A stretch of DNA of 64,000 nucleotides from Chloroflexota bacterium (GTDB lineage Bacteria; Chloroflexota; UBA11872), in the NCBI GenBank assembly GCA_022826485.1, contig JAJDUU010000014.1, positions 131,254 through 195,253 on the forward strand, given 5' to 3'. Shown piece by piece: positions 11,136 to 64,000 of this stretch; position 1 is the first letter of the stretch, and every line of letters begins with the position of its first letter. Both the position numbers and the translations under genes were made by a program. The notes under the pieces are model-generated. The model was not told where the DNA came from and searched no databases. It saw only the letters and a program-made list of their open reading frames with translations.

Positions 11136-12579
11136 GAGATTCGGGCGGTCCGCCGGCTTTCGAGCGCCTGACCGTAAAGCTCAAGGTAGGTGCGCGCTGC
11201 GGCGTCCCATGAGGAATCGCGCGACATGCCCCGGCGCATGAGCGCCCACCAGGCATCCGGATAGCGATAGGTCTCCAGCGCGCGGGCAATGGCCCCGAAG
11301 AAGTCGATGGGGTCGTAGCGATGAAACACGAACCCCGTGCCCACGCCGGTTCGCGCGTCGAAGTCTTCAACCGTATCGGCCAGCCCGCCGGTGGCGCGCA
11401 CCACGGGAATGCTGCCGTAGCGCATGGCGATGAGCTGGCCCAGGCCGCACGGCTCGTGGCGTGACGGCATGAGAAAGATGTCCGACCCGCCGTAGATTCG
11501 CTGCGCCAGCGGCGGGTCGAAGCGCAAGGCCAACCCGACGTGGCGGGGATGCTCCCGCGAGGCCTGGGTCAAGAGCTCGTGGTGGCGCGGGTCGCCGGTG
11601 CCCAGCACCGCCAGCTGGGCGCCGCGCTCGACGATGTGGGGCACGACCGGCGCCAGCAGGTCCAGTCCCTTGTGATCGGCCAGCCGCGACACCATGCCCA
11701 GCAGTGGCGTGTCGGCCTCGACGGGCAGCCCAAGCTCGCGCTGCAGCGCCGCCTTGTTGTGCGCGCGCTCCGCCAGGTTCCGCACGCTGAAGGTCGCCGG
11801 CAGATGCGGATCGGATGCGGGGTCGAAGGCGACGGTGTCGATGCCGTTGACGATGCCCGCGATGCCGTCGTGGCGCTCACGCAGCAGCGGGTCCAGCCGT
11901 TCCCCGTATGCCGGCGTCAGGATCTCCCTGGCGTAGGTGGCGCTCACCGTATTGACGGCGTCGGCATAGCGAATCCCGCGGGCGAGAAAATTCAATCGCG
12001 GGGTGAGCTCCGGGTCGGTCGGATGCTCCAGAAACCCGCCCTCCGCGAGGCCCGCCGCTTCCAGGATCTCCTCGCCAAAGTGCCCCTGGTACGCCAGGTT
12101 GTGAATGGTAAGCGCGGTGGCCGGGGAATCGGCGTGGTCCCCGTTGGCGCGCCCGGCGTGAATCCAGTTGGGAACCAGCCCCGCGTGCCAGTCGTGGCAA
12201 TGGACCACATCCGGCTGCCACCGCATCGTTCGCATGGCTTCCAGCGCACCGCGCGAAAAGAAGACGAACCGATGGCCATCGTCGGGATAGCCGTAGAGGT
12301 CGGGCCGGTTAGCGAAGTAGTCGTCGCTGCCGATCAGATACAGCGGAAATGGACATTGCTCGACCAGACCGACCGATCCTCGGCGGGTGACGCCGTTCAT
12401 GGGCACCGCGAACGAGTCGCCCGTAGCTGGAATCGTGGGTATGGCGGGATCGATCGATCCGTAATGCGGCAGCGCCACCCGCACGTCGGCGCCCAGTTTT
12501 CGCAACGCCGTCGGCAAAGACCCGACCACGTCGCCCAGGCCGCCGGTCCAGGCGTAGGGCGTGCACTCGGCGGCGAGCA
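11132..12579 (-). CDS. glgA: Glycogen (starch) synthase, ADP-glucose type
   Basis: The product starts MLAAECTPYAWTGGLGDVV and carries a GT5 C-terminal domain. The N-terminal extension of table ORF 11132..13057 overlaps purH and is not credible. Confidence 0.85.
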
Positions 12580-38284: not shown

Positions 38285-40279
38285 TCAACTCCGGGCATCG
38301 AACGCGTCTCGAAGACCGTCAGCAATCAGGTGGACTGATAGAACCAAGAGAACAATCGGTACCGCAGGCGTTATCCAGCCCTGGACGGCGAAAAGGGAAT
38401 TGCCCGGCATTTGCGAGACCATCAGTCCCCAATTGACGGCTGGGTCGGGACTGCCAAGGCCAAGGAAACTCAGTGTGGCGTCTGTCAAGAGCGCTCCGGC
38501 CAGCCCATAGGCAGCGGCCACCGCCACCGGGCCCGAAAGATTCCTAAGCACAAGACGCGCGATGTCCGGTCGCTCGTCTTCGGTCGCCAGCGAATCCGCA
38601 GCATCAGCCGAGTGTCGCTGGATGAGGACCTGGCGGCGGACCAGACGTGCAATCCCTGGCCAACTGATGATCCCAATGATCAAGGCCACAGTCCCAGCTC
38701 CGAAAGCCACGAATATTGGGACCACGAGGAATATCGCTAGGAGCAACGGCGGGAAGGTCATGCCGAGATCGGTGACCCGCATGAGGACGCTGTCGATAAA
38801 TCCGCCACGAAGGCCCGCGATTGCACCAACAGCGAAGCCGATGACCAGGCTGATCGCCACCGCTGCCACGCCCACCGATAGTGCTGTGCGCGCACCGTGC
38901 AGCAGCAGGCTAAAGATGTCGCGACCAAAGCGGTCGGTCCCGAGCCAATGGGAAGCGCTTGGTTCCGCCATTGAGCTCAGCGGGACGGCGTCATGCGGAT
39001 CATGAGGGGCCGCCAGCGGCCCGAGCACGGCGATTGCGACGAACCCCAGAAGCATGACGAAACCGGCGACGGCCGGACGGCTGGACAGAAAGCGACGCCG
39101 CGCGATGCTCCATGGACGGTGCGCCAAGGGGCGGTCGAGCAGTTCAAGCGGTGGGCCGAACTGTCGCCCGGCGGCGCCGTGGCTGGCCGTCGCCGGCTCG
39201 CCGGTGGCGGGCGTGGAGCTTCGAGAGGAACCGCGAACGCGCGGGTCCAGCCAACCGTAAGCCACGTCGCTGAGGAGCCTCACAGCCAGCACCGCGACTG
39301 CGGCAACGAGCAGAGCCGCGGTTTGTACCGGGTAATCACGCTCCACCAATGCGGTGACCGTGAGCCCACCCAAGCCTGGCCATCCGTGCATCATCTCGAC
39401 GACGATAGCGCCGCCTATGAGAGATGGGAGATAGAGGCTCAGATTCCTCACCAAGCGCAGCCCAGCACTGCGGAGCACGTGCCCTGAGCTAATCGGTGTC
39501 TCACTTGAGTCCTCGGCAGGTTCGGTCTGCTCGGAACTTCCGGAGCGCGGAGCCCTGATCGATTGCTGTGTGTGGCGCATGTGCATCGCTATGCACGGCA
39601 GCGCCAAGGCTGCGGTCGGTATGAGGGCGGCGTGAAGCGTTGTCAGACTGAAAGATCCGCCAGTGCCCGGCAGTCCACCAATCCCGAAGGCAGGCAGCCA
39701 TCCCAGTCGAATGATGAGTGTGTGAATCCCCCAGAGGACAATGAGTATCGGTGGGATTGAAGCCAGGAGGACAGGGATTGCACCGAGCGAACGGACTAAG
39801 CTTGATTCTCGGAACTTTGCCGAAATCACACCAAATGCAGTCCCTATTGCTGCGGCAACGATGAGTGCAAACGAGACAAGTGTCAATGTGACTTTGGCTG
39901 CCTCTCCGACTATGTCGGAAACCTGGCGGTAGCTCTCAATTGAATCGCCTAGATTGCCGGTCAGAATCTCCTTCATCCAGAATATATAGCGCACTGGACC
40001 TGGAGATTCATCGCCGAATCGGCGCTGCAATTCCTTGCGATCTTCCCCCGATTTCCACGCTTGATCTTGTCCGGAAGACCGCGCCTGCTCTTGTCCTAGA
40101 ATCCCCGCTCGATCTTGGATGGAAAGCGCCACTTGATCGTAACGTCCGAAGAGATTGACAACAGGATCGCCGGGAATCATGCTTGCCAACAGAAAAACAA
40201 CGACTGAAACTCCCAGAAACAATTGGATTGAGATGAGCAAACGTTGAAAAATGTATTTGGCCATTGTCCCAGAACTCAA
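38285..40279 (-). CDS. Fused ABC transporter permease (DppB/OppB-like N-terminal half plus DppC/OppC-like C-terminal half). It is an orphan with no cognate ATPase or binding protein nearby.
   Basis: The N-terminus begins MAKYIFQRLLISIQLFLG...MIPGDPV. The second half has the GTDRFGRDIFS motif of OppC, and both halves carry EAA-like loops. Its 5' half is about 50% GC. Confidence 0.8.
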   Translation of the reverse strand: MSSGTMAKYIFQRLLISIQLFLGVSVVVFLLASMIPGDPVVNLFGRYDQVALSIQDRAGILGQEQARSSGQDQAWKSGEDRKELQRRFGDESPGPVRYIFWMKEILTGNLGDSIESYRQVSDIVGEAAKVTLTLVSFALIVAAAIGTAFGVISAKFRESSLVRSLGAIPVLLASIPPILIVLWGIHTLIIRLGWLPAFGIGGLPGTGGSFSLTTLHAALIPTAALALPCIAMHMRHTQQSIRAPRSGSSEQTEPAEDSSETPISSGHVLRSAGLRLVRNLSLYLPSLIGGAIVVEMMHGWPGLGGLTVTALVERDYPVQTAALLVAAVAVLAVRLLSDVAYGWLDPRVRGSSRSSTPATGEPATASHGAAGRQFGPPLELLDRPLAHRPWSIARRRFLSSRPAVAGFVMLLGFVAIAVLGPLAAPHDPHDAVPLSSMAEPSASHWLGTDRFGRDIFSLLLHGARTALSVGVAAVAISLVIGFAVGAIAGLRGGFIDSVLMRVTDLGMTFPPLLLAIFLVVPIFVAFGAGTVALIIGIISWPGIARLVRRQVLIQRHSADAADSLATEDERPDIARLVLRNLSGPVAVAAAYGLAGALLTDATLSFLGLGSPDPAVNWGLMVSQMPGNSLFAVQGWITPAVPIVLLVLSVHLIADGLRDAFDARS

Positions 40280-40507
40280 TTCATATGATCATTTCAGCTT
40301 CGCTACGACAGCCGACGTTAAACTCAGCGAGTCTATCTAGATCGCGTATCTCCGGCAAGTTCGTGCCTCGCATGGCGTGGATGGAGCCACGGCTTGGCAT
40401 AAAATTGCAGCGCAGGATTGGCGCGCGGCGACCGTCCGCGGTTATTCGGACGGGCCGTGGTGCGATTCAGCTCACGCTTAGACGCACGGTGATGCCGTGG
40501 TACGCGG

Positions 40508-41098
40508 CTACTCCGCCAGATAGCCCCGCTGGACGGCCTCGTCGATCAGCTCTCGCGCGTATTCCCAAAGCTCCGGCGCGCCGTCGGCGATGGTGGCGTT
40601 CACGGCCATCACTTGGGCTCGGCGCACGCCGTGCTTGCGCCAGGCGTGGCCCTGGGTGTGGAAGTTGAGCAGCAGCGGTTGCAGGCGGTCCAGCGTGAAG
40701 GCGAACCTGGCTTCGGGCGTCTGCCGCGCTTCGAACTCCTCCCACGCCTCGCGCAGCGCGGCCGCCTGATCGGGCGGCAGGAGGCCGAAGATGCGGTCGG
40801 CCGCGGCGCGTTCTTTCTCGGCTTGCCGCTCGCGGGCCGCGATGTCGTAGATGAAGGTGTCGCCGGCGTCGATCTCGACCAGGTCGTGGACCAACAGAAT
40901 CTCGATCACCCGATAGACGTCGATCTCCTCGCGCGCGTACTCGGCAAGCAGTCGCGCCATCACCCCCAGGTGCCAGGCGTGCTCGGCGTCGTTTTCGCGG
41001 CGGCCCGCCTCGATGACCAACGAGTTGCGCAGGATGGACTTGGCCTTGTCGATCTCGACGATGAACGCGAGCTGACGCTGCAGTCGGTCGGTCGTCAC
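40508..41098 (-). CDS. HD-domain phosphohydrolase (YfbR-like 5'-deoxynucleotidase)
   Basis: It contains HAWHLGVMA ... LLVHDLVEIDAGD (the HD motif). Confidence 0.75.
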   Translation of the reverse strand: MTTDRLQRQLAFIVEIDKAKSILRNSLVIEAGRRENDAEHAWHLGVMARLLAEYAREEIDVYRVIEILLVHDLVEIDAGDTFIYDIAARERQAEKERAAADRIFGLLPPDQAAALREAWEEFEARQTPEARFAFTLDRLQPLLLNFHTQGHAWRKHGVRRAQVMAVNATIADGAPELWEYARELIDEAVQRGYLAE

Positions 41099-55255: not shown

Positions 55256-56146
55256 CTAGCTCCGTCCGGGAAAGGTCAGCTCCGCCACGCCCGACTTGTC
55301 CAGCTCGCCCTTGCCGATGGCGATCATCTTGTCGTACTGCGCCTTCGTCGCCTGCGCCAACGGCAGGTCGAGTCCGGCGTCGTCGGCCAGCGACAGGGCA
55401 ATGCCCGAGTCCTTGGCCGCGTGCGCCGATGAGAAGTACGTCTCATGGTCCCGGATCACCATGTCCTCGCCGTCGGTTTCGAGCACGCGTGAGTTCGCCC
55501 CGGTCTGCGAGAACACCTCCTGGAGCACGTCCAGGTCCAACCCCAGCGCCGACCCAAGGCCCAGGCCCTCGGCCAGCCCGGCGGTGTTGATGTTCATCAC
55601 CATGTTGACCAGCGCCTTCACCTGCGCCGCCGTGCCCGCGGGCCCGATGTAGCGACGCGAGATGCTCAGGGTTTCCAATAGCGGCTCGACCTGCTGGTAG
55701 ACGGCTTCGCGCCCGCCGCACATCAGGTAGAGAGTTCCGTCGCGCGCCTGCGTGATGCTGCTGGCCATGCAGGCTTCCAGGCTGCTCGCGCCGGCGCCCT
55801 CGGCTAGGGCCTCCACATCCACGTGCACCTGCGGCGTGATGGTGGCGCAGTTGATGAACACCCGGCCCTCGGCGCCGGTCAGCAGACTGTCGCCGCTCTC
55901 GCTGAAGATCTCGCCCATGGAGGCGTCGTCCGTGACCACGGTGATGATGACGTCGGACGCCGCCGTCACTCCGGCCAGGGAGTCCGAGGCCTCGCACCCA
56001 AGCTCGCCGGCCAGCGATTCGGCCAGCGCGCCCTGCGCGTCGAATACGGCGGAGACCGTATAGCCCTCGTCGTTCAGGTGGCGCGCCATGTTGGCGCCCA
56101 TCCGCCCCACGCCCACAAAACCAATCCGCTGCGCCATGTCCGCCAT
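55256..56146 (-). CDS. NAD(P)-dependent 3-hydroxyisobutyrate dehydrogenase-family oxidoreductase (MmsB / 2-hydroxy-3-oxopropionate reductase-like)
   Basis: It has an N-terminal Rossmann motif (IGFVGVGRMGANMA) and a 6PGD-like C-terminal domain. Confidence 0.8.
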   Translation of the reverse strand: MADMAQRIGFVGVGRMGANMARHLNDEGYTVSAVFDAQGALAESLAGELGCEASDSLAGVTAASDVIITVVTDDASMGEIFSESGDSLLTGAEGRVFINCATITPQVHVDVEALAEGAGASSLEACMASSITQARDGTLYLMCGGREAVYQQVEPLLETLSISRRYIGPAGTAAQVKALVNMVMNINTAGLAEGLGLGSALGLDLDVLQEVFSQTGANSRVLETDGEDMVIRDHETYFSSAHAAKDSGIALSLADDAGLDLPLAQATKAQYDKMIAIGKGELDKSGVAELTFPGRS

Positions 56147-56229: not shown

Positions 56230-56670
56230 CTATCCGCTCAGGGACGCGTGGAAGTCGCTCCAGTCCTCGAGCGCATTCAGCGTCACGGCGTCCTTGATGG
56301 CGTGGTCCGCGTTGGTCCCGGCGCCCTCGGAAATCGCCGCCACGATGTCGTCGCCGTGCTCATAGCCCGCGATCGCCGCGTTCGAGGCGTCGATCACCGA
56401 CTGGTCGATGCTGCCGCCGTTCTGGTCGACGACCCACTGCTCGAACTGCGGATACGTCGGGCGACTGCTCGAAATGAAGTCCACCGCCGCGTCGCGGTCG
56501 ACCCCCAGGCCGTCCAGCACCATCTGGTCGAACCCGGCGCCGCACGCGTCGTATTCGTCATTGAGCTGGCCCGCCGCCGACAACGAGACCTTCAGCCACA
56601 GCCGCGGCAGGTGCATCGCTCCCAGCGGTCCGGCTTCGCTTGATCCAATCATCGGAATCATCTTCGCCAT
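56230..56670 (-). CDS. DUF5069-like protein
   Basis: The MHLPRLWLKVSLSAAGQLNDEY region resembles the conserved LPRxxDKxRL...G.LP.EY core of DUF5069. The start is tentative. Confidence 0.5.
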   Translation of the reverse strand: MAKMIPMIGSSEAGPLGAMHLPRLWLKVSLSAAGQLNDEYDACGAGFDQMVLDGLGVDRDAAVDFISSSRPTYPQFEQWVVDQNGGSIDQSVIDASNAAIAGYEHGDDIVAAISEGAGTNADHAIKDAVTLNALEDWSDFHASLSG

Positions 56671-56831
56671 TTGCTCGCTCCTCACCGTCGCCCGGGCAGC
56701 CTGAAGGGTGCCTAGCACGATACCAACAAACCATTGCGGAGGTGAAGCTTCGGGCCACAGCAGTCGCGCCGCGCCGCCCGTTCGTGGTGAGCCCGTCGAA
56801 CCACGCCGGGAGTCCCTCGCTCCGTCTCCTC

Positions 56832-57140
56832 CGTCATTCCGGCGAAGAGCCTGCCCCGTACTCGATACGGGGCCGAAATCCAGTCGGGCTCACGGACGTG
56901 TCAGACGGACCTGGACCCCGGCCTTCGCCGGGGTGACGAGGAAATCCCTGGGCTGCCGGTAACCGCTATCCCCCCGCCCGTCATTCCCGCCATCACCCGC
57001 CCGTCATTCCGGCGGACGCCGGAATCCAGGTCCGGTGGCCCACGCTGCGTGCAGCGTGGGATCCGGCGCCAGTGCGTTTGCTCCCTATTCCCCGTGCGCG
57101 TCCGCTCCCTCTCCCGCGGGGAGAGGGCAGGGGTGAGGGG
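56832..57140. repeat. Cluster of GC-rich palindromic REP/MITE-like elements forming the left boundary of the 57-62 kb island
   Basis: The cluster holds several palindromes and inverted repeats. There is an inverted repeat ccggcgaagg/ccttcgccgg spanning about 100 bp around a ccccgta-ctcga-tacgggg hairpin. There are tandem cgtcattcc(c/g)gc...ggaatcc units (56986-57030). The palindrome cccacgctgcgtgcagcgtggg lies at 57039-57060. The palindrome ccctctcccgcggggagaggg (57107-57127) sits next to ggggtgagggg. Confidence 0.6.
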
Positions 57141-57283
57141 CCGCCGGCACTATCCACCAGTACACGGTCCCACAAGGACAATCCTGGGGATTGCCCGTTC
57201 GCGCCACCGGCTGCCAGCCGCCGCCGCCCGGCGATATAGGATTGACTCAGGCCCGCCTGAACGGACCTGCCTGCGAGGTCTCC

Positions 57284-57724
57284 ATGACTGACGACGCAAC
57301 CCCGAACGAGAACTCCCCGGCCGTTCACGCGCCCCTGTCCATCATGCAGTCCGTCATCGCCCGCATGGCCGACGGCAGCCGTTCATGCAAGACCTGGTGC
57401 GTCATCATCATTGCGGCCATCCTGGTCCTCGGCGCGGGCATGACCGAATTCGACCACCTGTGGATCGCCTACGTGCCGCTGATCGTCTTCCTCGGCCTCG
57501 ACATGTACTACCTGGCTCTGGAGCGGCGGTTCAGGGCGTCCTACAACGCCTTCCTGCAGAAGCTCCGCAGCGGCGATGTCACCGCCGAAGACTTATTCGA
57601 GATCACGCCCGCAGGCTCAGCCGCCAAGGCATGGTTCGCGACCCTCGGCTCAATCGCCATCTGGCCCTTCTATCTGGTCCTCGCCGGAGTCATAGCCTTC
57701 GTATGGTGGCAGGTAACGGGCTAA
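57284..57724 (+). CDS. Small integral membrane protein (three predicted TM helices) of unknown function
   Basis: It is an ORF of about 146 aa from the ATG at 57284 (MTDDATPNEN...). It has hydrophobic segments WCVIIIAAILVLGAGM, LWIAYVPLIVFLGLDMYYLAL and LGSIAIWPFYLVLAGVIAFVWW. No family was recognised. Confidence 0.5.
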   Translation: MTDDATPNENSPAVHAPLSIMQSVIARMADGSRSCKTWCVIIIAAILVLGAGMTEFDHLWIAYVPLIVFLGLDMYYLALERRFRASYNAFLQKLRSGDVTAEDLFEITPAGSAAKAWFATLGSIAIWPFYLVLAGVIAFVWWQVTG

Positions 57725-57800
57725 GGTAATGGCTGTGAAGCAGGCGGTCAGGTGCGGCTGCGTTAGGGGCTGAGCGTGCCGTGTGTTTCGTGGTCGTGGT

Positions 57801-57825
57801 TTGCCTGTTTCGTGTTTTCTATAAT
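57801..57825 (+). promoter_or_regulatory. Candidate sigma70-like promoter (ttgcct ... tataat) upstream of the DUF4238 gene
   Basis: A perfect tataat lies at 57820-57825 with ttgcct at 57801-57806 (13-nt spacer, suboptimal). A GGGGAAAGGAG Shine-Dalgarno-like sequence precedes the ATG at 57917. Confidence 0.25.
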
Positions 57826-57916
57826 CGGCCGAAATGTGAGCAGAACAGAACAACCCAGTCTGATGCTCACTCCGAGACGCATATCTGGGCAAAGATCTAT
57901 TGTGGGGAAAGGAGTG

Positions 57917-59030
57917 ATGCAAAACGGGTAAGAAAAGGCAGCATTATGTTCCTAAATTCTATCTCAAGGCATTTCAAAGCGAACCAAGGAGAATCCACAT
58001 CTATAATCTTGAGAGATCGATGCCGATAAGGAGCGTAAGCGTCCGGGACCAATGCCATAAGCCCAACTTTTACGGGGCTGACAATCGCAACGAAGATATG
58101 TTGGGGTTTTTCGAGAATCACATGGCCAGAGTTATCTCATCAATAAATGAAAGCAAAGGTATCCCTAGAGATGGCGATGCGTCTCGTAATCTCCTCTTGC
58201 TTTTTGTGGCCCTTCAATCTATGCGCACCGCTAAAGCCGCTGATCAAGTGGAGCAGATTATGGCAAAGATTAGCGACCGAGTCTATTCCGGTGACCGGAG
58301 AAGTCGGCAAGACTTTGACAGGTCGGATGTGGGAAGAATGTTAGGGGGTTCTGAGAATGCACCTGAGAGTCTGCTTAACTTGGTTCCTGATCTACTCGAG
58401 TCAATTTTAGATCTGAATGCTCATTTGGTGATTTCCAGGAACAATGAATTTCTAGCAAGTGACAACCCGGCTTTTAAGTATAATCAATACTGTGAGGGCC
58501 TTTCGGCCATGGGAACTACCGGCGCAATTAAAAAAGGATTTCAAGTATTTCTGCCAATTTCACCGAGCACTCATTTGGTTCTTTATGATGGATCAACCTA
58601 TCGGGTGAAATCTCGTGATAAGGCATCTTGCGTCAGCACTGCTCAGCAATCTGATATAGAAACCTTGAATATGCTACAGATGGTTTCGGCTGGGATGAAT
58701 GTCTATTTCTCTAACTGGAGCCAAGCTGCAGGTATCGATAAGCTTTACCGAAGCGTTAAGTCAATTCGCGATGCTAATTCGGTGGTTGTTTCTGAATTCG
58801 GTCGTGATGGTGTCGAGAATGAATCTCTAATTCACACCTATGAACAGATGCCGAATCTGTCGCTTGAACTTGGATTTCTACACTTGCGGAGGCGAGCACT
58901 CAGAATACCGCTTCGTGACCGTCACCGACTAATCCGAATGGCGCATGGTGGCAAGTTCACACGCAGGCGTGGACCACATAGTCAGCCGAATGAAGTCGTG
59001 AGATATTCGAGATTCTTAGGTCGAAGCTGA
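57917..59030 (+). CDS. DUF4238 family protein. It appears to need a +1 frameshift near 57920-57930 to join its start codon to the conserved N-terminus, so it is either a pseudogene or carries a sequencing error in a homopolymer run.
   Basis: The frame of table ORF 58020..59030 extends upstream as KRQHYVPKFYLKAFQSEPRRIHIYNLERS, the DUF4238 HYVPxFYLKxF N-terminal signature. That frame has a TGA at 57915 and no start codon. The ATG at 57917 (MQNG*) is in the -1 frame and is preceded by a Shine-Dalgarno sequence. GC is about 45%, against about 69% for the background. Confidence 0.55.
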
Positions 59031-59153
59031 GATTGACAGGATGTCGGCCACGTATATGCGAGGCGGATCATTCTGGGAAAAACGGCCTGAATGTGTGGAT
59101 GGTGACGGATTGGGAGTGTACGCGTTGTTTCGCGTGGGGTAAGGAAGCTAGGG

Positions 59154-62105
59154 CTAGGACGGCAACTCTGGCTCTTTCGCCCCGTGGATGGACGGGTCGC
59201 TGGCGAGGAGGGTGCGGAGGCGGGAGATGGTGGTTAGGGCCTGATCGTCGAGGGCGAGCATGTCGGTGGTGATGCGTTGGTCGAGATCGATGCGGTCGGG
59301 GTCGACGGCGCAGCGGTGGAAGGATTCGAAGGTGCGACCCTGGAAGTCGCGCCAGATGGACTGGGCTTCGTCGAGCTGCCAAGGCTGAAGTTCGCGCACG
59401 TCGAGTGTTGGCAGCGTTTCGAGCATTCCCTTGTTGCCGCGACCTCTTCCGTACTGCGATCTGCTGGCGTGATTGGCGTGGAGCATTAGTCCTGCCGTGG
59501 AGTTGCACCAAAGGGCGAGTGCGACCTCTTGCCGGGAGTGGTTCGCGGGAATGCCCTCTTGGATTTTCATGGAAAACCATTGACTCACGCCGAGCGCCCG
59601 AGCAATGGTTCGGGTCGCCATGATTCGTTGTGAGTTGTACCTGACGTCGCGGGTCATCTGAAGCATGCCGGCCTGGGACCATATCGGCGGATGGTCGCGG
59701 CGATTTGAGGGATAGAGGCGCGCATTTGGCTCAGAGACAAACCCCTGGTGTACTTTCTGCGACTGCGCCCAAAGCGCCGGGAATTGCGCTTGTGCATCCC
59801 ACCCGTGATAGGCGTCGAACGCCCCGAGAGAGCCGCGAATCTGGCGGTCCTGCGGACCTACGTTGCAGACGCTTCCCAGTGGCTCGATAGGAAGCTGGGC
59901 GATGACTCGCGAGCCGTCGGCCGCCCAAAGCTCGCCGCGTTCCAGCGCGGCGGCGAACTGGCCGGTCTGGCCCTGCCGCCAGCGGGAGGCGGCCCACGAT
60001 CTCGCGTCCACCGGCCCGTCCAACAGCTCTCCCCATTGCTCGCCACCGACGATCAAGGGAATACCGCCGATAGGCGGACCGTCGGAGCGGTGCAAGGGCG
60101 CCTCTGCCGCTACATTGATAGCGTTGACCAGCGCCAGTGCGTCGGTGTCGCGATAGGGCGCGCGCCAGAGGTTGACGAACCGGCCCCGGCCCGATGGCGT
60201 CTCGTCTTCGCGCAGTCGACGGGCGACTACTAGGGCCTCGGCAATGTCGGTGTCGTAGGACATCGAGCGCAGCTTGGGATCGTGAGACGAGACTACGAAC
60301 TCAAGCAAGTAGCGGTCGGCGAGCATCTGGCGTACGTCCCGCCATGACTCCCCGGCCAATGCGGTCACCGGCAGCACCAGCGCGACTCGGCCGCCGGGTT
60401 TCACGAGCCGGTCGGCTAGAACGGTGAACGACGCGCCATGCCCTGCCGTCTGGTTGGCCGGCGTGCCCCTAATGAGGTCGGAGGTGCGCCGGGCCACGGC
60501 TTGCTGCGCCTCCGCGTCGCCTGCGGGCAGGTCCAGCACCCGCGCCAGCGCCGCGCCCTTGCCGCCGTCGCTGCCCCGCCGGGTGAAGGGCGGATTGCTG
60601 ATGACCAAGTCAGCGCGCGGCGGTCGAACCTCGTCGCCTGCGCCACCCTTTGCGCCGATTTGTTCGCGCGTGGCTGAGAATGATGATTGGGCTACAGGTG
60701 CTTGCAACCAGTCCAGCGAGCCAAGGTGAATCACGTCTTGGCTCACTGATGGCGCCTCGGGCTCCACGCCGGCCGCTTCGAAGCCTTGCTCGGTGGCATC
60801 GAACACGGATGCTCCCCGCTCCATGCCCATGCGCAGGCTGTGCAGTTGCATTTGGGTGAAGCCCACAGAGGGCGACATGGCGGCAAGCGTGGCGGCGGTG
60901 AGGTGGATGGCGGCCTGCACCACGTCGGCGCCGAATAGGGTGTGCTCGACGAGTGCTTGATGCAGTGCCTCGTCGGTCTCCTGGTTTCCGGCTTCCGCCG
61001 GAATGACGGAAGCCGGCGCGGTCGCGCGGTTTTGGACGATCTGTTGATAGGCCGCCATGAGCAGGGTGCCGGTGCCGCAGGCGGGGTCGACCACGCGCAG
61101 TTGGCTCAGGTTCTCGGCGTCGCTCCAGTCCACGCTCGGCCAGCGTTCCGGCGCTAACGCCAGCCCCGCCAACAAGGTGGCGGCCGGAATGCTGGTGTAG
61201 TAAGCGGCCAGCAGTTTGCGGTCGGCGATCAACCGGTTGAAGATGCGTCCGGCCAGGTCATGGCGACCCACCGCGCCCATGCCCAGCAGTTGCGCGGCGG
61301 TTTCCGCGCACTCTTCCAGCACAGCGGCAGCCTCGACGTCCGAAAGCTCGGACACAACATCGCGGGCCATGCTGAAGATGGGGTAGTAGTCAATGTCGAG
61401 GATGGCGTCCCACATGGTGAGCAGCCGCAAGCGCGAGAAGACGCCATTGCGGCGAGAGGCGCTGGTCGGCTGAATGGCTGCGTCAACACTGGACAGCCGC
61501 TCCTGGAACACCATGGCGTTGGTGACGACCAGCGCGGCCATGTGGGCCACCTCATCGCTCGGCGGTGCGTTGAAGATGCCGGCCACGCGTGCCAGCGTGC
61601 CGGGTGAGCTATAGAGGCGCGAGCCGGCGCTGCGGACGCCATCGTCGAGGACTTTGACCGCTTCTTCGAGGTTGCTGGCCGGTGGGGCGGCTCGCGCCGC
61701 CGCGTTGCCGAGCTCGACGAAGCTGCCACTGACCCTTGGGCCCGCGGTGCCGTCGATCCGCCACTCGCGCCACGTGAGGCTAGCGCCGGCCAGACGTTCA
61801 TAGAGGTGTTGTTGGCTGATTGCACGCAAGTGCACGGGAACGGCGACGGCGGCGGCGATTTGCACGGGCTGGCCATCGATCTCCAGGCCCAACCGCGCCA
61901 GCGCGTCGGCGTCCACGGTGGCCGCCGGTTCGAACTCTATTTCAAGCACGACCGGGCCTTCGGGCCGCCGCAGAACGATGTCCGGTCTGGCAGGTCCGCG
62001 TATGGTCTCGGCGGCCGTTGACAGCCCCAGGCGATCCCTCAGCAGTTGCGCCAGCACGACGTTAATGACTTCTTCTCGGCTGCGTGTGCTGGCGGCGGCA
62101 GTCAT
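59154..62105 (-). CDS. Large single-polypeptide gamma-class N6-adenine DNA methyltransferase with an MmeI-like type IIG/IIL restriction-modification architecture (N-terminal nuclease-like region, MTase, C-terminal putative target-recognition domain). A BREX PglX-like role is not excluded.
   Basis: It has motif I VVDPACGTGTLLMAAY and motif IV LVISNPPF about 145 aa downstream, which gives the gamma order. It also has a post-IV RVALVLP strand and a C-terminal region of about 480 aa with no recognisable enzymatic motif. The N-terminal RPDIVLRRPEGPVVLEIEFE resembles a PD-x(n)-(D/E)xK core with Glu in place of Lys. The ATG at 62105 is favoured over 62183. GC is about 60%. Confidence 0.7.
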   Translation of the reverse strand: MTAAASTRSREEVINVVLAQLLRDRLGLSTAAETIRGPARPDIVLRRPEGPVVLEIEFEPAATVDADALARLGLEIDGQPVQIAAAVAVPVHLRAISQQHLYERLAGASLTWREWRIDGTAGPRVSGSFVELGNAAARAAPPASNLEEAVKVLDDGVRSAGSRLYSSPGTLARVAGIFNAPPSDEVAHMAALVVTNAMVFQERLSSVDAAIQPTSASRRNGVFSRLRLLTMWDAILDIDYYPIFSMARDVVSELSDVEAAAVLEECAETAAQLLGMGAVGRHDLAGRIFNRLIADRKLLAAYYTSIPAATLLAGLALAPERWPSVDWSDAENLSQLRVVDPACGTGTLLMAAYQQIVQNRATAPASVIPAEAGNQETDEALHQALVEHTLFGADVVQAAIHLTAATLAAMSPSVGFTQMQLHSLRMGMERGASVFDATEQGFEAAGVEPEAPSVSQDVIHLGSLDWLQAPVAQSSFSATREQIGAKGGAGDEVRPPRADLVISNPPFTRRGSDGGKGAALARVLDLPAGDAEAQQAVARRTSDLIRGTPANQTAGHGASFTVLADRLVKPGGRVALVLPVTALAGESWRDVRQMLADRYLLEFVVSSHDPKLRSMSYDTDIAEALVVARRLREDETPSGRGRFVNLWRAPYRDTDALALVNAINVAAEAPLHRSDGPPIGGIPLIVGGEQWGELLDGPVDARSWAASRWRQGQTGQFAAALERGELWAADGSRVIAQLPIEPLGSVCNVGPQDRQIRGSLGAFDAYHGWDAQAQFPALWAQSQKVHQGFVSEPNARLYPSNRRDHPPIWSQAGMLQMTRDVRYNSQRIMATRTIARALGVSQWFSMKIQEGIPANHSRQEVALALWCNSTAGLMLHANHASRSQYGRGRGNKGMLETLPTLDVRELQPWQLDEAQSIWRDFQGRTFESFHRCAVDPDRIDLDQRITTDMLALDDQALTTISRLRTLLASDPSIHGAKEPELPS

Positions 62106-62284
62106 GCTCGAATCGTTCTCGACCGCTGTAGTTTCGTTGAGAGTAGTACGCCTGTGCGTGGCTGGGGATAGTCGGGCGGGCAACCACCAGGGTTGCCCCC
62201 ACTCGGACTTGCATGCGAACTGCTTCTAGCCAACGGTGTAGATTCAGCTATGGGAAGCCACGTCATGCGCAAGACGACAGTCCG

Positions 62285-63436
62285 ATGAAATTCTGGTCGG
62301 CGGCGTCGCTGGAGCATGCGCCTGAGGCCATTGCGGCGGACCTGCGGGATCAGGTTCAGGGCGGGGACGACGCGTTGGATCTGGCCGTCGCGTTCGTGCG
62401 GCCGCCGGACAACACCGAAATTACGCCGATCATCGAGGCGGTTCGCCAGGCGCTGCCGGCGCGTCACTTTCTGGCCTGTACGGCCGAGAGCGTGGTGGCG
62501 GCCGGACGCGAGATCGAGGACGAGGCGGCCACGGGGCTGCTGGCGGGCTCGATGCCGGGCGTGCAGATCGACCCGCTGCCGGACCTCGCGGCGCTGCTCG
62601 AGGACGGCGAGGCGGCCGCGGCGCACCTGCGGAGCGCCGCCGCCGTGGTGGCGCTGGTGGACCCCTTCTCGGTGCACACGGAACATTTGGTCGAGCGCAT
62701 GAACGAGCGTGCGCCGGGCGTGCCGCTCATCGGCGGCATCGCCAGTTGGGCGCGCTCGGCGGGCGGCAACCGGCTGGCGAACGGCGACGCCATCACCGAC
62801 CGGGGCGTGGTTGCCGTTGCGCTGCGCGGCGCGGTGGACGTGAGCATCGTGGTTTCGCAGGGGTGCCGGCCCGTCGGCTCGCCGCGCACCGTGACCGGCG
62901 CCAAGGGCAACATCATCACCGAGCTCGACGGGCAGTCGCCGATCGACACGCTGCGGCAGGTGTTCGCCGAGGCCGCCGAAAAGGACCAGGAGCTGATGCG
63001 CGTGGGCGTGATGCTGGGCCACGCGATCTCGACCGACGCCGACGATTGGGGCCGCGGCGGCTTTCTCATTCGCGGCCTGATGGGCGCCGACGCCGGCTCG
63101 GGCGCCCTGGCCGTGACCGGCATCGTGAGCGAGCAGGACACGGTGCAGTTTCACGTGCGCGACGCCGCGACGGCTCAGGAGGACCTGGAGCTGCTGCTCA
63201 CGCCGCAGGCGTTCGAGCCTGAGGCCGCCGGGGCGCTGCTGTTCACCTGCAACGGACGCGGCGCGCGCATGTACGGCCGGCCCGACGGGGATATCTCGTT
63301 GGTGCGCCAGGCGCTCGGCAGCGACGTGCCGGTCAGCGGCTTTTTCTGCGGCGGGGAGCTGGGGCCGATCGGCGGATCGAACTTCGTGCACGGATTCACG
63401 GCGAGCTTGGCGATCTTTCGACCAAAGGCGGGCTGA
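62285..63436 (+). CDS. FIST-domain sensor protein (FIST_N + FIST_C)
   Basis: It is a 383-aa protein with two FIST halves, and its GC matches the genome. Confidence 0.65.
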   Translation: MKFWSAASLEHAPEAIAADLRDQVQGGDDALDLAVAFVRPPDNTEITPIIEAVRQALPARHFLACTAESVVAAGREIEDEAATGLLAGSMPGVQIDPLPDLAALLEDGEAAAAHLRSAAAVVALVDPFSVHTEHLVERMNERAPGVPLIGGIASWARSAGGNRLANGDAITDRGVVAVALRGAVDVSIVVSQGCRPVGSPRTVTGAKGNIITELDGQSPIDTLRQVFAEAAEKDQELMRVGVMLGHAISTDADDWGRGGFLIRGLMGADAGSGALAVTGIVSEQDTVQFHVRDAATAQEDLELLLTPQAFEPEAAGALLFTCNGRGARMYGRPDGDISLVRQALGSDVPVSGFFCGGELGPIGGSNFVHGFTASLAIFRPKAG

Positions 63437-63448
63437 GCCGGGCGGCGA

Positions 63449-63900
63449 CCCCTCACCCCGTCCCTCTCCCGCCGGAGACCCTTGCGTAACCCCTCCGTCA
63501 TTCCCGCGGAGGCGGGAATCTACCGGACGCTGAACCTCTTAGCCCACGCGTAGGGGCGACGCATGCGTCGCCCTTGCCTCTTTGTTCAAAGGCCTCCGCC
63601 GGGAGAGGGGGCCGGCCCGTGGTCGAGAATGGGATGCGCTTGGAAGGCTCAGCCGCGTCGGGTCCCACGCTGCACGCAGCGCGGGCCACCGGGCAGGAGC
63701 CGTCTCCGTTCGCCCTGAGCGCAGTCGAAGGGCGCCGTCCATGGTTCGACAGGCTCACCACGAACGGCGACGGATCCCACGCTGCGCGCAGCGTGGGCCA
63801 CCGGACCCCACGGTGCTTGCCGCGGACCCCCTCACCCCACCCTCTCCCGCCGGGAGAGGGGCCGGACCGTGGTCGAGACCGAGGGCGCCCACGACCGGCG
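63449..63900. repeat. Cluster of GC-rich palindromic REP/MITE-like elements forming the right boundary of the island, the same family as at 56832-57140 and 2167-2196
   Basis: These units are present: cccctcaccccgtccctctcccgccggagac (63449-63478), cgtcattcccgcggaggcgggaatc (63496-63520), gtaggggcgacgcatgcgtcgccc (63551-63574), tcccacgctgcacgcagcgcggg (63664-63686), tcccacgctgcgcgcagcgtggg (63776-63798) and ccccctcaccccaccctctcccgccgggagagggg (63829-63860). Each of the two ...gagagggg units is followed by gccgg(c/a)ccgtggtcgaga. Confidence 0.6.
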
Positions 63901-63922
63901 CCCTACGCGGACTTCAGGCTCT

Positions 63923-64000
63923 GGCGGCGCCTACTCGGCGAGGTCCGTTCGGTAGAGATAGCGGATATCCCACAGCCCATACAGCGTGGGCGTGGTGTTG
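63923..64000 (-). CDS. C-terminal fragment of an unidentified minus-strand gene. It continues past the window end.
   Basis: The reverse-strand frame ...NTTPTLYGLWDIRYLYRTDLAE stops at 63923-63925. A GC hairpin (gggcgcc-cacgacc-ggcgccc, 63882-63903) lies just downstream. Confidence 0.3.

What the first reader, a model, noticed from the sequence alone, without database searches (positions are those of the whole stretch)
57284..62183. Compositionally foreign island of about 5 kb flanked by palindromic repeat clusters: small membrane protein + DUF4238 + giant single-chain N6-adenine MTase, a candidate mobile R-M or defense module
GC falls from the genomic 68-70% to about 45% in the DUF4238 gene and about 60% in the 985-aa methyltransferase gene. 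The block sits exactly between two clusters of the same GC-rich palindromic repeat family (56832-57140 and 63449-63900) and is flanked by ordinary housekeeping genes (the liv operon, an mmsB-like gene, a FIST sensor). Its content matches no standard multi-gene layout. A 3-TM mini-protein, a DUF4238 protein of unknown function, and an MmeI-like nuclease-MTase-TRD fusion with an atypical PD...ExE motif are arranged convergently. This combination has, to my knowledge, not been described as a named system. It could be two or three independent defense cargos or a cooperating unit.
Basis: partly seen in the sequence, partly recalled or inferred. Interest (0 to 1): 0.8.

Follow-up and report, generated by a model that had tools for sequence, protein, structure and literature searches.

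The report
Swappable defence slot beside restriction-methylase gene
Only about 1.4 kb here is foreign DNA: a DUF4238 antiphage-type gene sitting in a slot, between a conserved restriction-methylase-like gene and a small membrane-protein gene, that holds a different defence gene in each related Chloroflexota genome, so this is a defence hotspot and not a 5-kb mobile island.

Summary
The three genes exist, and the GC trough is the deepest in the window. The trough covers only 57725-59153 (GC 0.475), which is the DUF4238 gene. The 983-aa methylase-like gene has GC 0.66. The small 3-TM gene has host-like codon usage (GC3 0.86).

Syntenic relatives keep FIST | methylase | slot | small gene | DUF5069 | dehydrogenase. 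Only the slot content differs: retron RT-TIR, PDC-M24, a 1125-aa P-loop protein, or DUF4238 again. Non-syntenic relatives carry CBASS, PDC-M41 or a type II R-M pair 3' of the gene. Homology breaks at the two convergent stop codons.

The methylase belongs to an unnamed family, almost all in Chloroflexota MAGs and often multi-copy. A confident AlphaFold model shows a type IIG-like single chain:
- an N-terminal PD-(D/E)xK-type domain (D42, E55-x-E57);
- a gamma N6-adenine methyltransferase (DPACGTG, NPPF);
- a recognition domain with a hypervariable stretch (aa 812-895).

The palindromes are REP-like elements found around many of the related loci. The right-hand cluster lies beyond FIST.

The small protein matches PADLOC candidate PDC-M50A but lacks the TIR neighbour seen in other phyla.

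The DUF4238 gene has a conserved, selected N-terminal extension with no canonical start codon.

Verdict: a new example of a known kind (a defence hotspot). Moderate interest.

The parts
56778..57149 (.). Left cluster of REP-like GC-rich palindromes (three families). It lies in the intergenic space between the DUF5069 gene and the small membrane-protein gene.
   Evidence: the repeat finder and pattern searches against shuffles. The same elements are scattered up- and downstream in 35 of 80 related loci, so they are not island junctions.
57284..57724 (+). Conserved 146-aa protein with three transmembrane segments (PADLOC candidate family PDC-M50A). It forms the left flank of the variable slot and is transcribed towards it.
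   Evidence: PADLOC PDC-M50A, E 8.9e-26. Hydropathy analysis. GC3 0.857, like the host. Homologues 73-83% identical lie on the far side of the cargo in L002/L006, L004, L007, L008 and L010; L089 shows the same layout with a 71%-identical copy. DNA homology with L004/L006 ends at 57714-57715.
57725..59153 (.). Variable cargo slot. This is the only compositionally foreign DNA in the finding. It is bounded by the stop codons of two convergent conserved genes.
   Evidence: GC 0.475 and GC3 0.433, against 0.676 for the window. No DNA homology to syntenic L004, L005 or L006 between 57715 and 59155. In relatives the slot holds retron RT-TIR, PDC-M24, a 1125-aa protein, CBASS, PDC-M41 or a type II R-M pair.
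57909..57931 (+). Unusual translation-start region of the DUF4238 gene. It contains a Shine-Dalgarno AAGGAG (57909-57914), a 5-codon mini-ORF ATG CAA AAC GGG TAA (57917-57931) in another frame, and an in-frame ACG (57924-57926) 9 nt after the Shine-Dalgarno.
   Evidence: Read directly from the sequence. The same layout occurs in homologous loci L093 and L094: Shine-Dalgarno, ATA or ATT mini-ORF, TAA, in-frame ACG.
57924..58019 (+). N-terminal extension of the DUF4238 protein (TGKKRQHYVPKFYLKAFQSEPRRIHIYNLERS). It is in frame with the annotated ORF but has no ATG/GTG/TTG start.
   Evidence: Adding it raises the Pfam DUF4238 score from 87 to 126 bits, and the match then covers profile positions 1-279 of 281. 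pN/pS is 0.13-0.21 among three homologues.
58020..59030 (+). DUF4238 gene as called (336 aa). It is the cargo of the slot, and the family includes a published single-gene antiphage system.
   Evidence: Pfam PF14022, E 1.7e-24. PMC9122126: a DUF4238 protein gives strong resistance to T7. Closest homologues (77% and 63% identity) also lie next to large convergent genes: a member of this methylase family in L093, and an unassigned 927-aa gene in L094.
59154..62105 (-). 983-aa single-chain type IIG-like restriction-modification enzyme candidate (nuclease + N6-adenine methyltransferase + recognition domain). It forms the conserved right flank of the slot.
61716..62105 (-). N-terminal PD-(D/E)xK-type nuclease-like domain (aa 1-130). 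The candidate catalytic residues D42 and E55-x-E57 are encoded within 61935-61982.
   Evidence: Alpha-beta-beta-beta-alpha-beta core in both models. D42 is invariant and E55 is at least 90% conserved in 69 sequences of 26-44% identity. Coordinates checked.
61065..61088 (-). Methyltransferase motif I (DPACGTGT), the SAM-binding loop.
   Evidence: D340, G344 and G346 are invariant across the broad family. Pfam N6_Mtase hit over aa 360-394. Coordinates checked.
60980..61009 (-). REP-like palindrome inserted in frame within the methylase gene. It encodes VIPAEAGNQ in a loop after motif I.
   Evidence: Inverted-repeat pair I5, 93% complementary to the 57001-57030 copy. Pattern hit. Translation. Relatives lack it or carry other versions of the insert (alignment).
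60585..60596 (-). Methyltransferase motif IV (NPPF), the catalytic motif of N6-adenine methyltransferases.
   Evidence: N504, P505 and P506 are invariant. Coordinates checked.
59421..59672 (-). Hypervariable segment of the C-terminal recognition domain (aa 812-895). It coincides with the GC dip at the 3' end of the gene.
   Evidence: 121 sequence pairs have at least 80% backbone identity but at most 65% identity in this segment (for example 93% against 57%). Correlation is 0.35. Across 80 loci the last 800 nt of the gene average GC 0.59-0.60, against 0.62-0.65 for the rest of the gene.
63443..63991 (.). Right cluster of the same REP-like palindromes. It lies beyond the FIST gene and so is not adjacent to the defence genes.
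   Evidence: The FIST ORF at 62213-63436 lies between this cluster and the methylase gene.

Best explanation
The locus is a chromosomal defence hotspot. Two conserved genes converge on a short slot. One encodes a 983-aa single-chain type IIG-like restriction-modification enzyme. The other encodes a 146-aa three-TM protein. The DNA between their stop codons is replaced from genome to genome by different antiphage cargo. In this genome the cargo is a low-GC DUF4238 gene.

Inferred mechanism:
1. The large enzyme methylates adenines in a motif read by its C-terminal domain. It uses its N-terminal PD-(D/E)xK-type domain against unmodified incoming DNA. Diversification of aa 812-895 changes the motif.
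2. DUF4238 adds an independent second layer, as its E. coli relative does against T7.
3. Cargo turns over by homologous recombination. The conserved, often multi-copy methylase gene and, in this clade, the small gene serve as homology arms. Crossovers often fall inside the 3' end of the methylase gene.

Shown here: synteny, slot boundaries, cargo diversity, domain architecture, conserved motifs and the hypervariable segment.

Inferred: enzymatic activities, antiphage activity, the recombination route and the role of the small protein.
For: Synteny and boundaries:
- The order FIST | methylase | slot | small gene | DUF5069 | 3-hydroxyisobutyrate-dehydrogenase-like | liv is kept in L002/L006 and L004. 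L093 shows the same order from liv to the methylase, where its contig ends. L005 keeps the synteny but has no small gene.
- blastn homology stops at 57714/57715 and resumes at 59155-59161, that is, at the two stop codons.

Cargo in close relatives:
- Syntenic relatives: retron RT-TIR XII (E 4e-123), PDC-M24A+B (E 1e-67 and 1e-101), a 1125-aa P-loop protein, and DUF4238 again at 77% identity.
- Relatives at other chromosomal positions: CBASS CD-NTase + Cap15, PDC-M41 (DUF5131 + partner) and a type II R-M pair.

Across 80 loci:
- GC dips only in the last 800 nt of the gene and the first 2 kb downstream (0.55-0.60 against 0.62-0.63).
- 209 downstream ORFs fall into 163 clusters. They include Cas1/Cas4, GmrSD, HEC-05, PDC-M55C and Schlafen-type proteins, alongside housekeeping genes.

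Recombination footprints:
- Remnants of methylase 3' ends lie beyond the cargo in L089, L011, L033, L046, L047, L076 and L082.

Enzyme:
- AlphaFold2 pLDDT 89.2.
- Foldseek top hit is BpuSI, a type IIG enzyme (E 3e-18).
- D42, NPP and the motif I residues are invariant, and E55 is at least 90% conserved, in a 26-44% identity alignment.
- Nine of 80 copies are not a single long ORF, through IS insertion or frameshift, and L063 is also IS-interrupted. This fits a dispensable defence gene better than a housekeeping one.

DUF4238:
- Antiphage activity is published for the family.
Against: - No activity has been measured for any member of this methylase family.
- The third nuclease motif position is Glu, not Lys. 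BamHI shows that this can be active (my own knowledge, not tested here), but cleavage remains a prediction.
- Identity of 63-89% over the full length across many genomes is unusually high for a restriction enzyme.
- Distant relatives (about 30% identity) on Aminobacter and Sulfuricystis plasmids sit among plasmid-maintenance and anti-restriction-type genes. That could mean a protective orphan methylase.
- Many downstream neighbours in distant loci are ordinary metabolic genes. I could not compute the defence fraction.
- The small gene is absent from 73 of the 80 genome loci. It also flanks variable defence genes without this methylase (L095, L096), so it is not a general arm.
- PADLOC's own models did not hit this DUF4238 protein at all.
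- No remnant or att-like core is visible in the window itself.
Confidence: 0.68

Rival explanations
1. The whole block of about 5 kb (small protein + DUF4238 + methylase) is one horizontally acquired mobile island, and its insertion junctions are marked by the flanking palindromic repeat clusters.
For: - The repeat clusters are real, and in this window they occur almost only on the two sides of the region.
- The methylase + cargo + small-gene arrangement also occurs at other chromosomal positions (L007, L008, L010, L089), so the trio can relocate as a block.
- The methylase family is multi-copy in about 10 of the assemblies sampled.
Against: - The methylase gene has GC 0.662 and the small gene GC3 0.857, both host-like.
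- Both genes are retained at the same position in syntenic genomes, with 77-82% and 82-83% protein identity, while only the slot differs.
- The right repeat cluster lies beyond the FIST gene.
- The repeats occur 74 times in 35 of 80 loci on either side of the gene, and even inside it.
- There is no integrase, transposase, tRNA or direct-repeat junction.
Confidence: 0.07
2. The large protein is an orphan or regulatory adenine methyltransferase, or an anti-restriction 'self-protecting' methylase as on plasmids, with a degenerate nuclease-like domain. The neighbouring variable DNA is simply a recombination-prone intergenic region, and there is no restriction function.
For: - Conservation is unusually high (63-89% over the full length), and inheritance in syntenic genomes is vertical.
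- The motif is ExE rather than ExK.
- Relatives of about 30% identity on plasmids lie next to a zincin-like metallopeptidase, DUF3560 and PRTRC genes.
Against: - D42 is invariant and E55 nearly invariant across relatives of 26-44% identity, which argues for a working active site.
- A hypervariable stretch in the recognition domain is typical of restriction specificity arms races.
- At least 9 of 80 copies are IS-disrupted or frameshifted.
- Genomes carry 2-3 diverged copies.
- The best Foldseek hit is a bona fide type IIG endonuclease that includes the N-terminal domain.
Confidence: 0.17
3. The methylase, the small membrane protein and whatever sits between them form one cooperating multi-gene defence system. 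Under this view the cargo genes are 'embedded' in the sense of Payne et al. 2024, and the membrane protein acts as a shared effector or partner.
For: - In Chloroflexota, 9 of the 11 distinct contexts examined for the small gene place it within about 4.5 kb of a large N6-methylase gene. In L090 it converges directly on a different, Eco57I-type 1241-aa methylase.
- Several cargos (PDC-M24, PDC-M41) and the small protein itself (PDC-M50A) come from a catalogue built from genes embedded in R-M, BREX and DISARM systems.
Against: - 73 of 80 methylase loci have no small gene.
- The small gene also occurs without this methylase: L095 next to HigBA, and L096 directly upstream of a 1137-aa P-loop protein.
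- In other phyla its near neighbour (adjacent, or one gene away) is a ThsB-type TIR protein and there is no methylase nearby.
- The cargos are complete, known stand-alone systems (CBASS, retron, type II R-M).
Confidence: 0.08

Closest known systems
Type IIG / IIL single-chain restriction-modification enzymes (BpuSI, MmeI, DrdV)
   Same: - One polypeptide of about 900-1000 aa, with an N-terminal PD-(D/E)xK-type domain, a helical connector, a gamma-class N6-adenine methyltransferase (DPACGTG, NPPF) and a C-terminal recognition domain.
- BpuSI is the best Foldseek hit (E 3e-18).
- No conserved partner gene.
   Different: - Sequence similarity is limited to the methyltransferase motifs: MmeI E 1.8e-3, Pfam MmeI_Mtase below cut-off.
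- The nuclease motif is D...ExE instead of D...ExK.
- The family is unusually conserved, nearly confined to one phylum in the genome collection searched, often multi-copy, and uncharacterised (no source gives a name beyond 'hypothetical protein').
BREX methyltransferase PglX/BrxX
   Different: - No brxA/B/C/L/Z or pglZ genes are nearby.
- NCBIfam PglX scores are 15-22 bits against cut-offs of 400-900.
- This protein has an N-terminal nuclease-like domain.
Defence genes embedded in or adjacent to R-M/BREX/DISARM loci ('guilt by embedding', Payne et al. 2024, bioRxiv 10.1101/2024.01.29.577857), and core-gene-flanked defence hotspots
   Same: A variable set of unrelated defence cassettes occupies one fixed position next to a restriction-modification gene. 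Several cassettes here (PDC-M24, PDC-M41, PDC-M50A, PDC-M55C, HEC-05) are families from that very catalogue.
   Different: The anchor here is a single-gene type IIG-like enzyme rather than a multi-gene type I, BREX or DISARM system. The slot lies outside the gene, between two convergent stop codons. The 3' (specificity-encoding) end of the anchor gene seems to take part in the exchange.
DUF4238 single-gene antiphage system (Rousset et al. 2022, PMC9122126; 'Rst_DUF4238' in DefenseFinder-based surveys)
   Same: A single protein of about 370 aa matching Pfam PF14022 end to end once the N-terminal extension is included (126 bits). It is located in a hotspot of variable defence genes.
   Different: - It is a distant relative: no PADLOC model hits it.
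- The host is a Chloroflexota MAG, not a P2 prophage of E. coli.
- The start of the gene lacks a canonical initiation codon in three homologues.
PADLOC candidate system PDC-M50 (two-gene cassette FAM_00415>>FAM_00416)
   Same: The small membrane protein matches all four PDC-M50A models (best E 8.9e-26).
   Different: No second component is present. In Nodosilinea and two metagenomic contigs of other phyla the homologue lies next to, or one gene from, a ThsB-type TIR protein. Here and in related Chloroflexota it has no TIR neighbour and instead borders a variable slot.

Membership tests
Type IIG/IIL single-chain R-M enzyme | Nuclease domain of the PD-(D/E)xK superfamily in the same polypeptide as the methyltransferase | tested here: met
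   The confident model (pLDDT 86-97 over aa 10-130) has the alpha-beta-beta-beta-alpha-beta core. D42 lies at strand 2 and E55-x-E57 on strand 3. D42 is invariant and E55 at least 90% conserved in the broad family. The motif variant is ExE, so catalysis itself is not shown.
Type IIG/IIL single-chain R-M enzyme | Gamma-class N6-adenine methyltransferase motifs I (xGxGxG) and IV (NPPY/F) | tested here: met
   DPACGTG at aa 340-346 and NPPF at aa 504-507, invariant in alignments A2 and A4. Pfam N6_Mtase scores 26.9 bits against a cut-off of 20.4.
Type IIG/IIL single-chain R-M enzyme | C-terminal target-recognition domain in the same chain, with no separate specificity subunit | tested here: met
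Type IIG/IIL single-chain R-M enzyme | Site-specific methylation and cleavage at a fixed distance from the site | not testable with these tools
   Needs a methylome or biochemistry.
MmeI family (Pfam MmeI_* domains) | Matches to the MmeI-specific domain models above their cut-offs | tested here: not met
   Only PF20473 MmeI_Mtase hits, at 20.2 bits against a cut-off of 27, over 29 residues of motif I. No MmeI N-terminal, helicase-spacer, TRD or C-terminal model hits. The profile against the MmeI sequence gives E 1.8e-3, motif region only.
BREX (PglX) | PglX-type methyltransferase together with the brxA/B/C, pglZ and brxL gene set | tested here: not met
   NCBIfam PglX models score 15-22 bits against cut-offs of 400-900. 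The neighbours are the FIST gene and the DUF4238 gene.
DUF4238 antiphage family | Full-length match to Pfam PF14022 in a stand-alone gene | tested here: met
   126.4 bits, profile positions 1-279 of 281 with the upstream extension; 87.2 bits without it.
DUF4238 antiphage family | Recognised by the defence-system HMMs (PADLOC) and protective against phage | tested here: not met
   No PADLOC model hits, even at E up to 10. Protection cannot be tested here.
PDC-M50 (PADLOC candidate, two genes) | Both components A and B adjacent | tested here: not met
   A is present (E 8.9e-26). None of the ORFs tested here, including those between 57725 and 59153, hits a PDC-M50B model. No TIR-domain gene is present, unlike in L084-L087.
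Mobile genomic island | Integrase/transposase or conjugation genes, insertion at a tRNA or a duplicated target, and absence of the whole block from relatives | tested here: not met
   No such genes were found, no tRNA and no flanking direct repeat of the block. The methylase and small gene are present at the same site in relatives.
Defence hotspot (variable slot between conserved flanks) | Conserved flanking genes with unrelated, largely defence-type content between them in related genomes | tested here: met
   The slots of the closest relatives hold six different kinds of content, plus DUF4238 again in L093. Breakpoints fall at the stop codons. The GC dip is family-wide. The overall defence fraction among all 80 loci was not quantified.

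The most novel reading that the evidence does not exclude
The 3' end of this methylase family acts as a dedicated exchange platform. Defence cassettes would travel together with the segment that encodes the enzyme's recognition domain. One recombination event would then swap both the restriction specificity and the neighbouring antiphage gene. Old 3' ends left behind as remnants would be the footprints.

A second, independent novelty is that this DUF4238 lineage may be expressed through a conserved non-canonical start. That start would be either ACG initiation or +1 recoding after a 5-codon leader, and it would throttle a potentially toxic effector.
Probability: 0.2. Interest if true: 0.7.

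Novelty: new member of a known kind. Interest (0 to 1): 0.42.

Why it matters
- It defines a large, unnamed family of type IIG-like enzymes. The profile search found about 1260 cluster representatives at E <= 1e-30. The close relatives (49-89% identity) lie almost entirely in uncultured Chloroflexota. There is now a confident structural model and a mapped hypervariable specificity segment. These enzymes are candidates for new recognition sequences.
- The position 3' of this gene is a reliable place to look for new defence genes in a phylum with no genetic system. The slot already yields uncharacterised candidates, for example a 1125-1137-aa P-loop protein with no Pfam or PADLOC hit.
- It corrects the annotation of a DUF4238 gene whose real start is not a standard codon.
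- None of this changes current concepts. It extends the 'defence hotspot / embedded defence' picture to a new anchor gene and a new lineage.

Tried and rejected
- DUF4238 as a frameshifted pseudogene. This was my first reading. I rejected it because the upstream 32 codons are under purifying selection in three homologues that all lack a canonical start.
- First AlphaFold run, with 64 close homologues. It gave pLDDT 51 and only weak fold matches. It was superseded by the run with 69 diverse representatives.
- Repeat clusters as island junctions. Rejected.
- Literature on PDC-M50. Only a cassette identifier was found (FAM_00415>>FAM_00416, 57 instances), with no description of the proteins.
- Mechanism of DUF4238. 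None has been published in the library searched.
- Names for distant family members. None were found.
- Sequence search of the PDB with the single protein. No hit.
- Promoter and terminator scan. Nothing above shuffles.
- tRNA and Rfam scans of the window. Nothing found.
- Batch Pfam and PADLOC scans of 149 downstream ORFs. These returned only family counts, so I could not calculate what fraction of slots is defence-related.
- Gene calls in the related loci come from a greedy longest-ORF heuristic and will contain some spurious ORFs in this high-GC DNA.

Full report
**1. What is at the coordinates**

- a 146-aa protein at 57284-57724 (+);
- a DUF4238 gene called at 58020-59030 (+);
- a large convergent ORF on the minus strand, 59154-62105 from its first ATG (983 aa; the upstream TTG is at 62183).

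The small protein has three hydrophobic segments.

The flanking genes are ordinary. On one side lie a 3-hydroxyisobutyrate-dehydrogenase-like gene (55256-56146) and a DUF5069 gene (56230-56718). On the other lies a FIST sensor gene (62213-63436).

**2. Composition**

The window averages GC 0.676 (sd 0.040 for 1-kb windows). The lowest 1-kb value in all 64 kb is 0.461, at 57751.

The trough is confined to the DNA between the two convergent stop codons: 57725-59153 has GC 0.475 and GC3 0.43.

The methylase gene is 0.662 overall and 0.675 over 59801-62105. Only its last ~650 nt fall, to 0.615. The small gene has GC3 0.857, like the housekeeping neighbours at 0.88-0.91.

So the foreign DNA is about 1.4 kb, not 5 kb.

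**3. The repeats**

Three families of GC-rich palindromes cluster at 56778-57149 and 63443-63991, far above shuffle expectation.

They do not work as island junctions:
- The right cluster lies beyond the FIST gene.
- In 80 related loci (1.72 Mb) the commonest element occurs 74 times in 35 loci, 37 downstream and 34 upstream of the methylase gene.
- One copy sits in frame inside the methylase gene at 60980-61009, encoding VIPAEAGNQ in a surface loop.

These are REP-like intergenic elements spread around many of the related loci.

**4. Comparison with relatives**

The large protein has more than 1000 full-length homologues at 49-89% identity. In a species-level genome collection, all 80 loci retrieved came from Chloroflexota MAGs (mostly labelled Dehalococcoidia, one Caldilineaceae). 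About 10 assemblies carry two or three copies.

L004 and L006/L002 keep the gene order FIST | methylase | slot | small gene | DUF5069 | dehydrogenase | liv. L093 shows the same order from liv to the methylase, where its contig ends. L005 keeps the synteny but has no small gene.

DNA homology with the window stops at 57714/57715 and resumes at 59155-59161. These positions are the two stop codons. No common sequence lies beyond them.

Slot content in syntenic and other close relatives:

| Locus | Slot content |
|---|---|
| window, L093 | DUF4238 (77% identity between the two) |
| L005 | retron-type RT-TIR (PADLOC RT-TIR_XII, E 4e-123) |
| L006 | PDC-M24A+B (DUF6978 + DUF1828) |
| L004, L008, L007 (split) | 1125-1130-aa P-loop protein with no Pfam or PADLOC hit |
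| L009, L071 | CBASS CD-NTase + Cap15 |
| L010 | PDC-M41 (DUF5131 + partner) |
| L019 | type II restriction enzyme + C5 methylase |

Only the window, L093, L005, L006 and L004 share the FIST-to-liv synteny. L007-L010, L019 and L071 carry the methylase at other chromosomal positions.

The pattern holds across the family:
- Over 80 loci, GC dips only in the last 800 nt of the gene (0.59-0.60) and the first 2 kb downstream (0.55-0.58). Background is 0.62-0.63, and the only other dip is a slight one (0.61) in the first 500 nt upstream.
- 209 downstream ORFs fall into 163 clusters.
- These ORFs include Cas1/Cas4, GmrSD, HEC-05, PDC-M55C, Schlafen-type proteins and transposases, alongside metabolic genes.

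**5. The large protein**

Library HMMs recognise only the methyltransferase motifs: Pfam N6_Mtase at 26.9 bits, and weak hits to type I, II and IIG models, MAD2 and PglX.

A profile search of 1.84 billion cluster representatives found 3913 relatives. Of these, 1260 have E <= 1e-30, and many of the best-scoring ones are 950-1000 aa long and match end to end. None carries a name.

In 69 sequences of 26-44% identity, the invariant residues are D42, D340/G344/G346 (motif I, DPACGTG) and N504/P505/P506 (motif IV, NPPF). E55 is at least 90% conserved. The consensus of the nuclease motif reads PD...IExE.

With this alignment AlphaFold2 gave pLDDT 89.2 and pTM 0.91. An earlier run with only close homologues had given pLDDT 51. 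The model has four parts:
- an N-terminal alpha-beta-beta-beta-alpha-beta domain, with D42 at strand 2 and E55-x-E57 on strand 3;
- a helical region;
- the methyltransferase fold;
- a beta-rich C-terminal domain.

Structural comparisons:
- Foldseek's best PDB match is the type IIG endonuclease BpuSI (E 3e-18), followed by BREX PglX/BrxX, CamA and DrdV.

By sequence it is not an MmeI-family member. Pfam MmeI_Mtase is below its cut-off, and the profile against MmeI gives E 1.8e-3.

Residues 812-895 (nt 59421-59672) are hypervariable:
- 121 pairs have at least 80% backbone identity but at most 65% identity in this segment. One example is P0003 against P0004, at 93% and 57%.
- Backbone and segment identities correlate at only 0.35.
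- The stretch coincides with the 3' GC dip.

Nine of 80 copies are not a single long ORF. L062, L076 and L080 carry ~410-aa transposase insertions, as does L063, which the ORF test missed. L079 and L082 are frameshifted. This argues against a housekeeping role.

**6. Footprints of exchange**

In L089 a 117-bp copy of the methylase 3' end lies beside the small gene, on the far side of the cargo from the intact gene. At the protein level, C-terminal remnants also lie downstream in L011, L033, L046, L047, L076 and L082.

Taken with the hypervariable 3' segment, this points to homologous recombination with crossovers inside the 3' end of the gene. I found no remnant in the window itself.

**7. The small membrane protein**

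It matches PADLOC candidate PDC-M50A (E 8.9e-26). PDC-M50 is a two-gene cassette from the 'guilt-by-embedding' catalogue.

In the three contexts from other phyla that I examined, the near neighbour is a ThsB-type TIR protein: adjacent in two contexts, one gene away in the third. No TIR gene is present here.

In Chloroflexota the small gene borders variable defence DNA at two or more chromosomal sites:
- With this methylase: window, L002/6, L004, L007, L008, L010, L089, L093.
- With a different Eco57I-type methylase plus a PLD-SNF2 helicase: L090.
- With a 1137-aa P-loop protein 48% identical to the L004 cargo: L096.
- With only HigBA: L095.

It is absent from 73 of 80 methylase loci. I read it as a conserved hotspot border gene of unknown function, an orphaned PDC-M50A, and not as an obligate partner of the methylase.

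**8. The DUF4238 gene**

A single DUF4238 protein from a P2 hotspot gives E. coli strong resistance to T7 (PMC9122126). Its mechanism is unknown.

The called ORF lacks the family's N-terminus. The 32 codons upstream (57924-58019) encode it in frame (…QHYVPKFYLKAF…). Including them raises the Pfam score from 87 to 126 bits. However, a TGA lies at 57915-57917, and there is no ATG, GTG or TTG before 58020.

The two closest homologues (77% and 63% identity, L093 and L094) show the same situation. The extension evolves with pN/pS of 0.13-0.21. It is therefore translated, and the gene is not a simple pseudogene.

Three features are conserved in all three loci:
- a Shine-Dalgarno sequence (AAGGAG or AAGGGG);
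- an in-frame ACG 9 nt later;
- a 5-codon mini-ORF (ATG, ATA or ATT … TAA) in the adjacent frame.

ACG initiation or +1 recoding would both explain this. I cannot separate them.

**9. Mechanism and comparison with what is known**

The best-supported reading (confidence about 0.68) is a chromosomal defence hotspot. Its parts are:
- a resident type IIG-like restriction-modification enzyme (methylation of self, cleavage of unmodified DNA, specificity set by aa 812-895);
- an independently acting DUF4238 cargo;
- a border gene for a small membrane protein.

Cargo is replaced by homologous recombination between the conserved flanks.

Shown here: synteny, breakpoints, cargo diversity, architecture, motifs and hypervariability. 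Inferred: all activities and the exchange route.

Rival readings:
- A 5-kb repeat-bounded mobile island (0.07). The synteny and composition contradict it.
- An orphan or regulatory methylase with a dead nuclease domain (0.17). High conservation, the ExE motif and the plasmid relatives near anti-restriction-type genes favour it. The conserved D42/E55, the hypervariable recognition segment and frequent gene decay argue against it.
- A cooperating methylase-cargo-membrane-protein system (0.08).

The closest known things are type IIG/IIL enzymes (same architecture, different sequence family, ExE motif) and defence genes embedded in or beside R-M/BREX loci (Payne et al. 2024). This is a new member of known kinds. 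Interest is moderate.

Noticed in passing
window 57909-58019; L093 6850-7000; L094 1400-1552: The DUF4238 gene has a conserved N-terminal extension under purifying selection (pN/pS 0.13-0.21) but no ATG/GTG/TTG start in any of three homologues. The conserved features are a Shine-Dalgarno sequence, an in-frame ACG 9 nt later, and a 5-codon ATG/ATA/ATT…TAA mini-ORF in the adjacent frame. This suggests either non-canonical initiation or +1 recoding.
   Followed up: partly
window 60980-61009 (-): A REP-like palindrome of the same family as the intergenic clusters is inserted in frame in the methylase gene. It encodes VIPAEAGNQ in a loop after motif I. Other family members carry related inserts (…VIPVKTGIQ…, …VIPATAGIQ…) or none.
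   Followed up: partly
L062 12325-13569; L063 ~10600-11815; L076 10822-12045; L080 11770-13014: Four related methylase genes are split by a ~1.2-1.4-kb insertion. In three of them it encodes a 407-414-aa protein, probably a Mutator-family (IS256-like) transposase. Others (L079, L082) are frameshifted, so the family decays in some genomes.
   Followed up: partly
L089 8487-8603; also L011, L033, L046, L047, L076, L082 downstream regions: Short remnants of methylase 3' ends (15-147 aa equivalents) lie on the far side of the cargo. They look like footprints of earlier cassette replacements with a crossover inside the gene's 3' end.
   Followed up: partly
L004 4539-7916 (-); L008 12871-16263 (-); L096 8466-11879 (+): A 1125-1137-aa protein recurs next to the small membrane-protein gene, with or without the methylase. 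It has a P-loop (GHPASGKTHLLRQF) and no Pfam or PADLOC hit. The L096 and L004 copies are 48% identical. It is a candidate uncharacterised defence gene.
   Followed up: partly
L090 8001-15641; L095; L096: A second chromosomal hotspot (near HpcH/aldehyde-dehydrogenase and ParE/luciferase-like genes) has the same small membrane-protein gene at its border. The neighbours vary: an Eco57I-type 1241-aa methylase plus a PLD-SNF2-helicase fusion, a 1137-aa P-loop protein, or only HigBA.
   Followed up: partly
L084 5492-6456; L086 6001-7905; L087 6001-7020: Outside Chloroflexota (a Nodosilinea cyanobacterium and two metagenomic contigs), homologues of the small membrane protein lie next to, or one gene from, a ThsB-type TIR protein. 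This probably identifies the undescribed PADLOC candidate PDC-M50 as a TIR + membrane-protein pair.
   Followed up: partly
L049 1251-4175: A second, distant paralogue of the methylase (32% identity, 974 aa) lies 6 kb upstream of the main copy in one genome. Several other assemblies carry two or three diverged copies.
   Followed up: no
L091 (Aminobacter pUSP4) and L092 (Sulfuricystis pSTJ1): Relatives of the methylase at about 30% identity sit on mobilizable plasmids. Their neighbours include a zincin-like metallopeptidase, DUF3560, DUF5710 and PRTRC genes. This context is more typical of plasmid establishment or anti-restriction functions.
   Followed up: no
window 39250-40750: This is the only other GC dip in the window (0.545-0.566). 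It falls in the 5' half of a 664-aa fused ABC-permease-like ORF (38285-40279, minus strand).
   Followed up: no
L008 7172-7809 and 9474-9779; L016, L027, L029, L036, L048 just upstream of the methylase gene: A ~100-aa HigA-like HTH antitoxin gene lies directly upstream of the methylase gene in at least six loci, with a HigB-like partner in L008.
   Followed up: no
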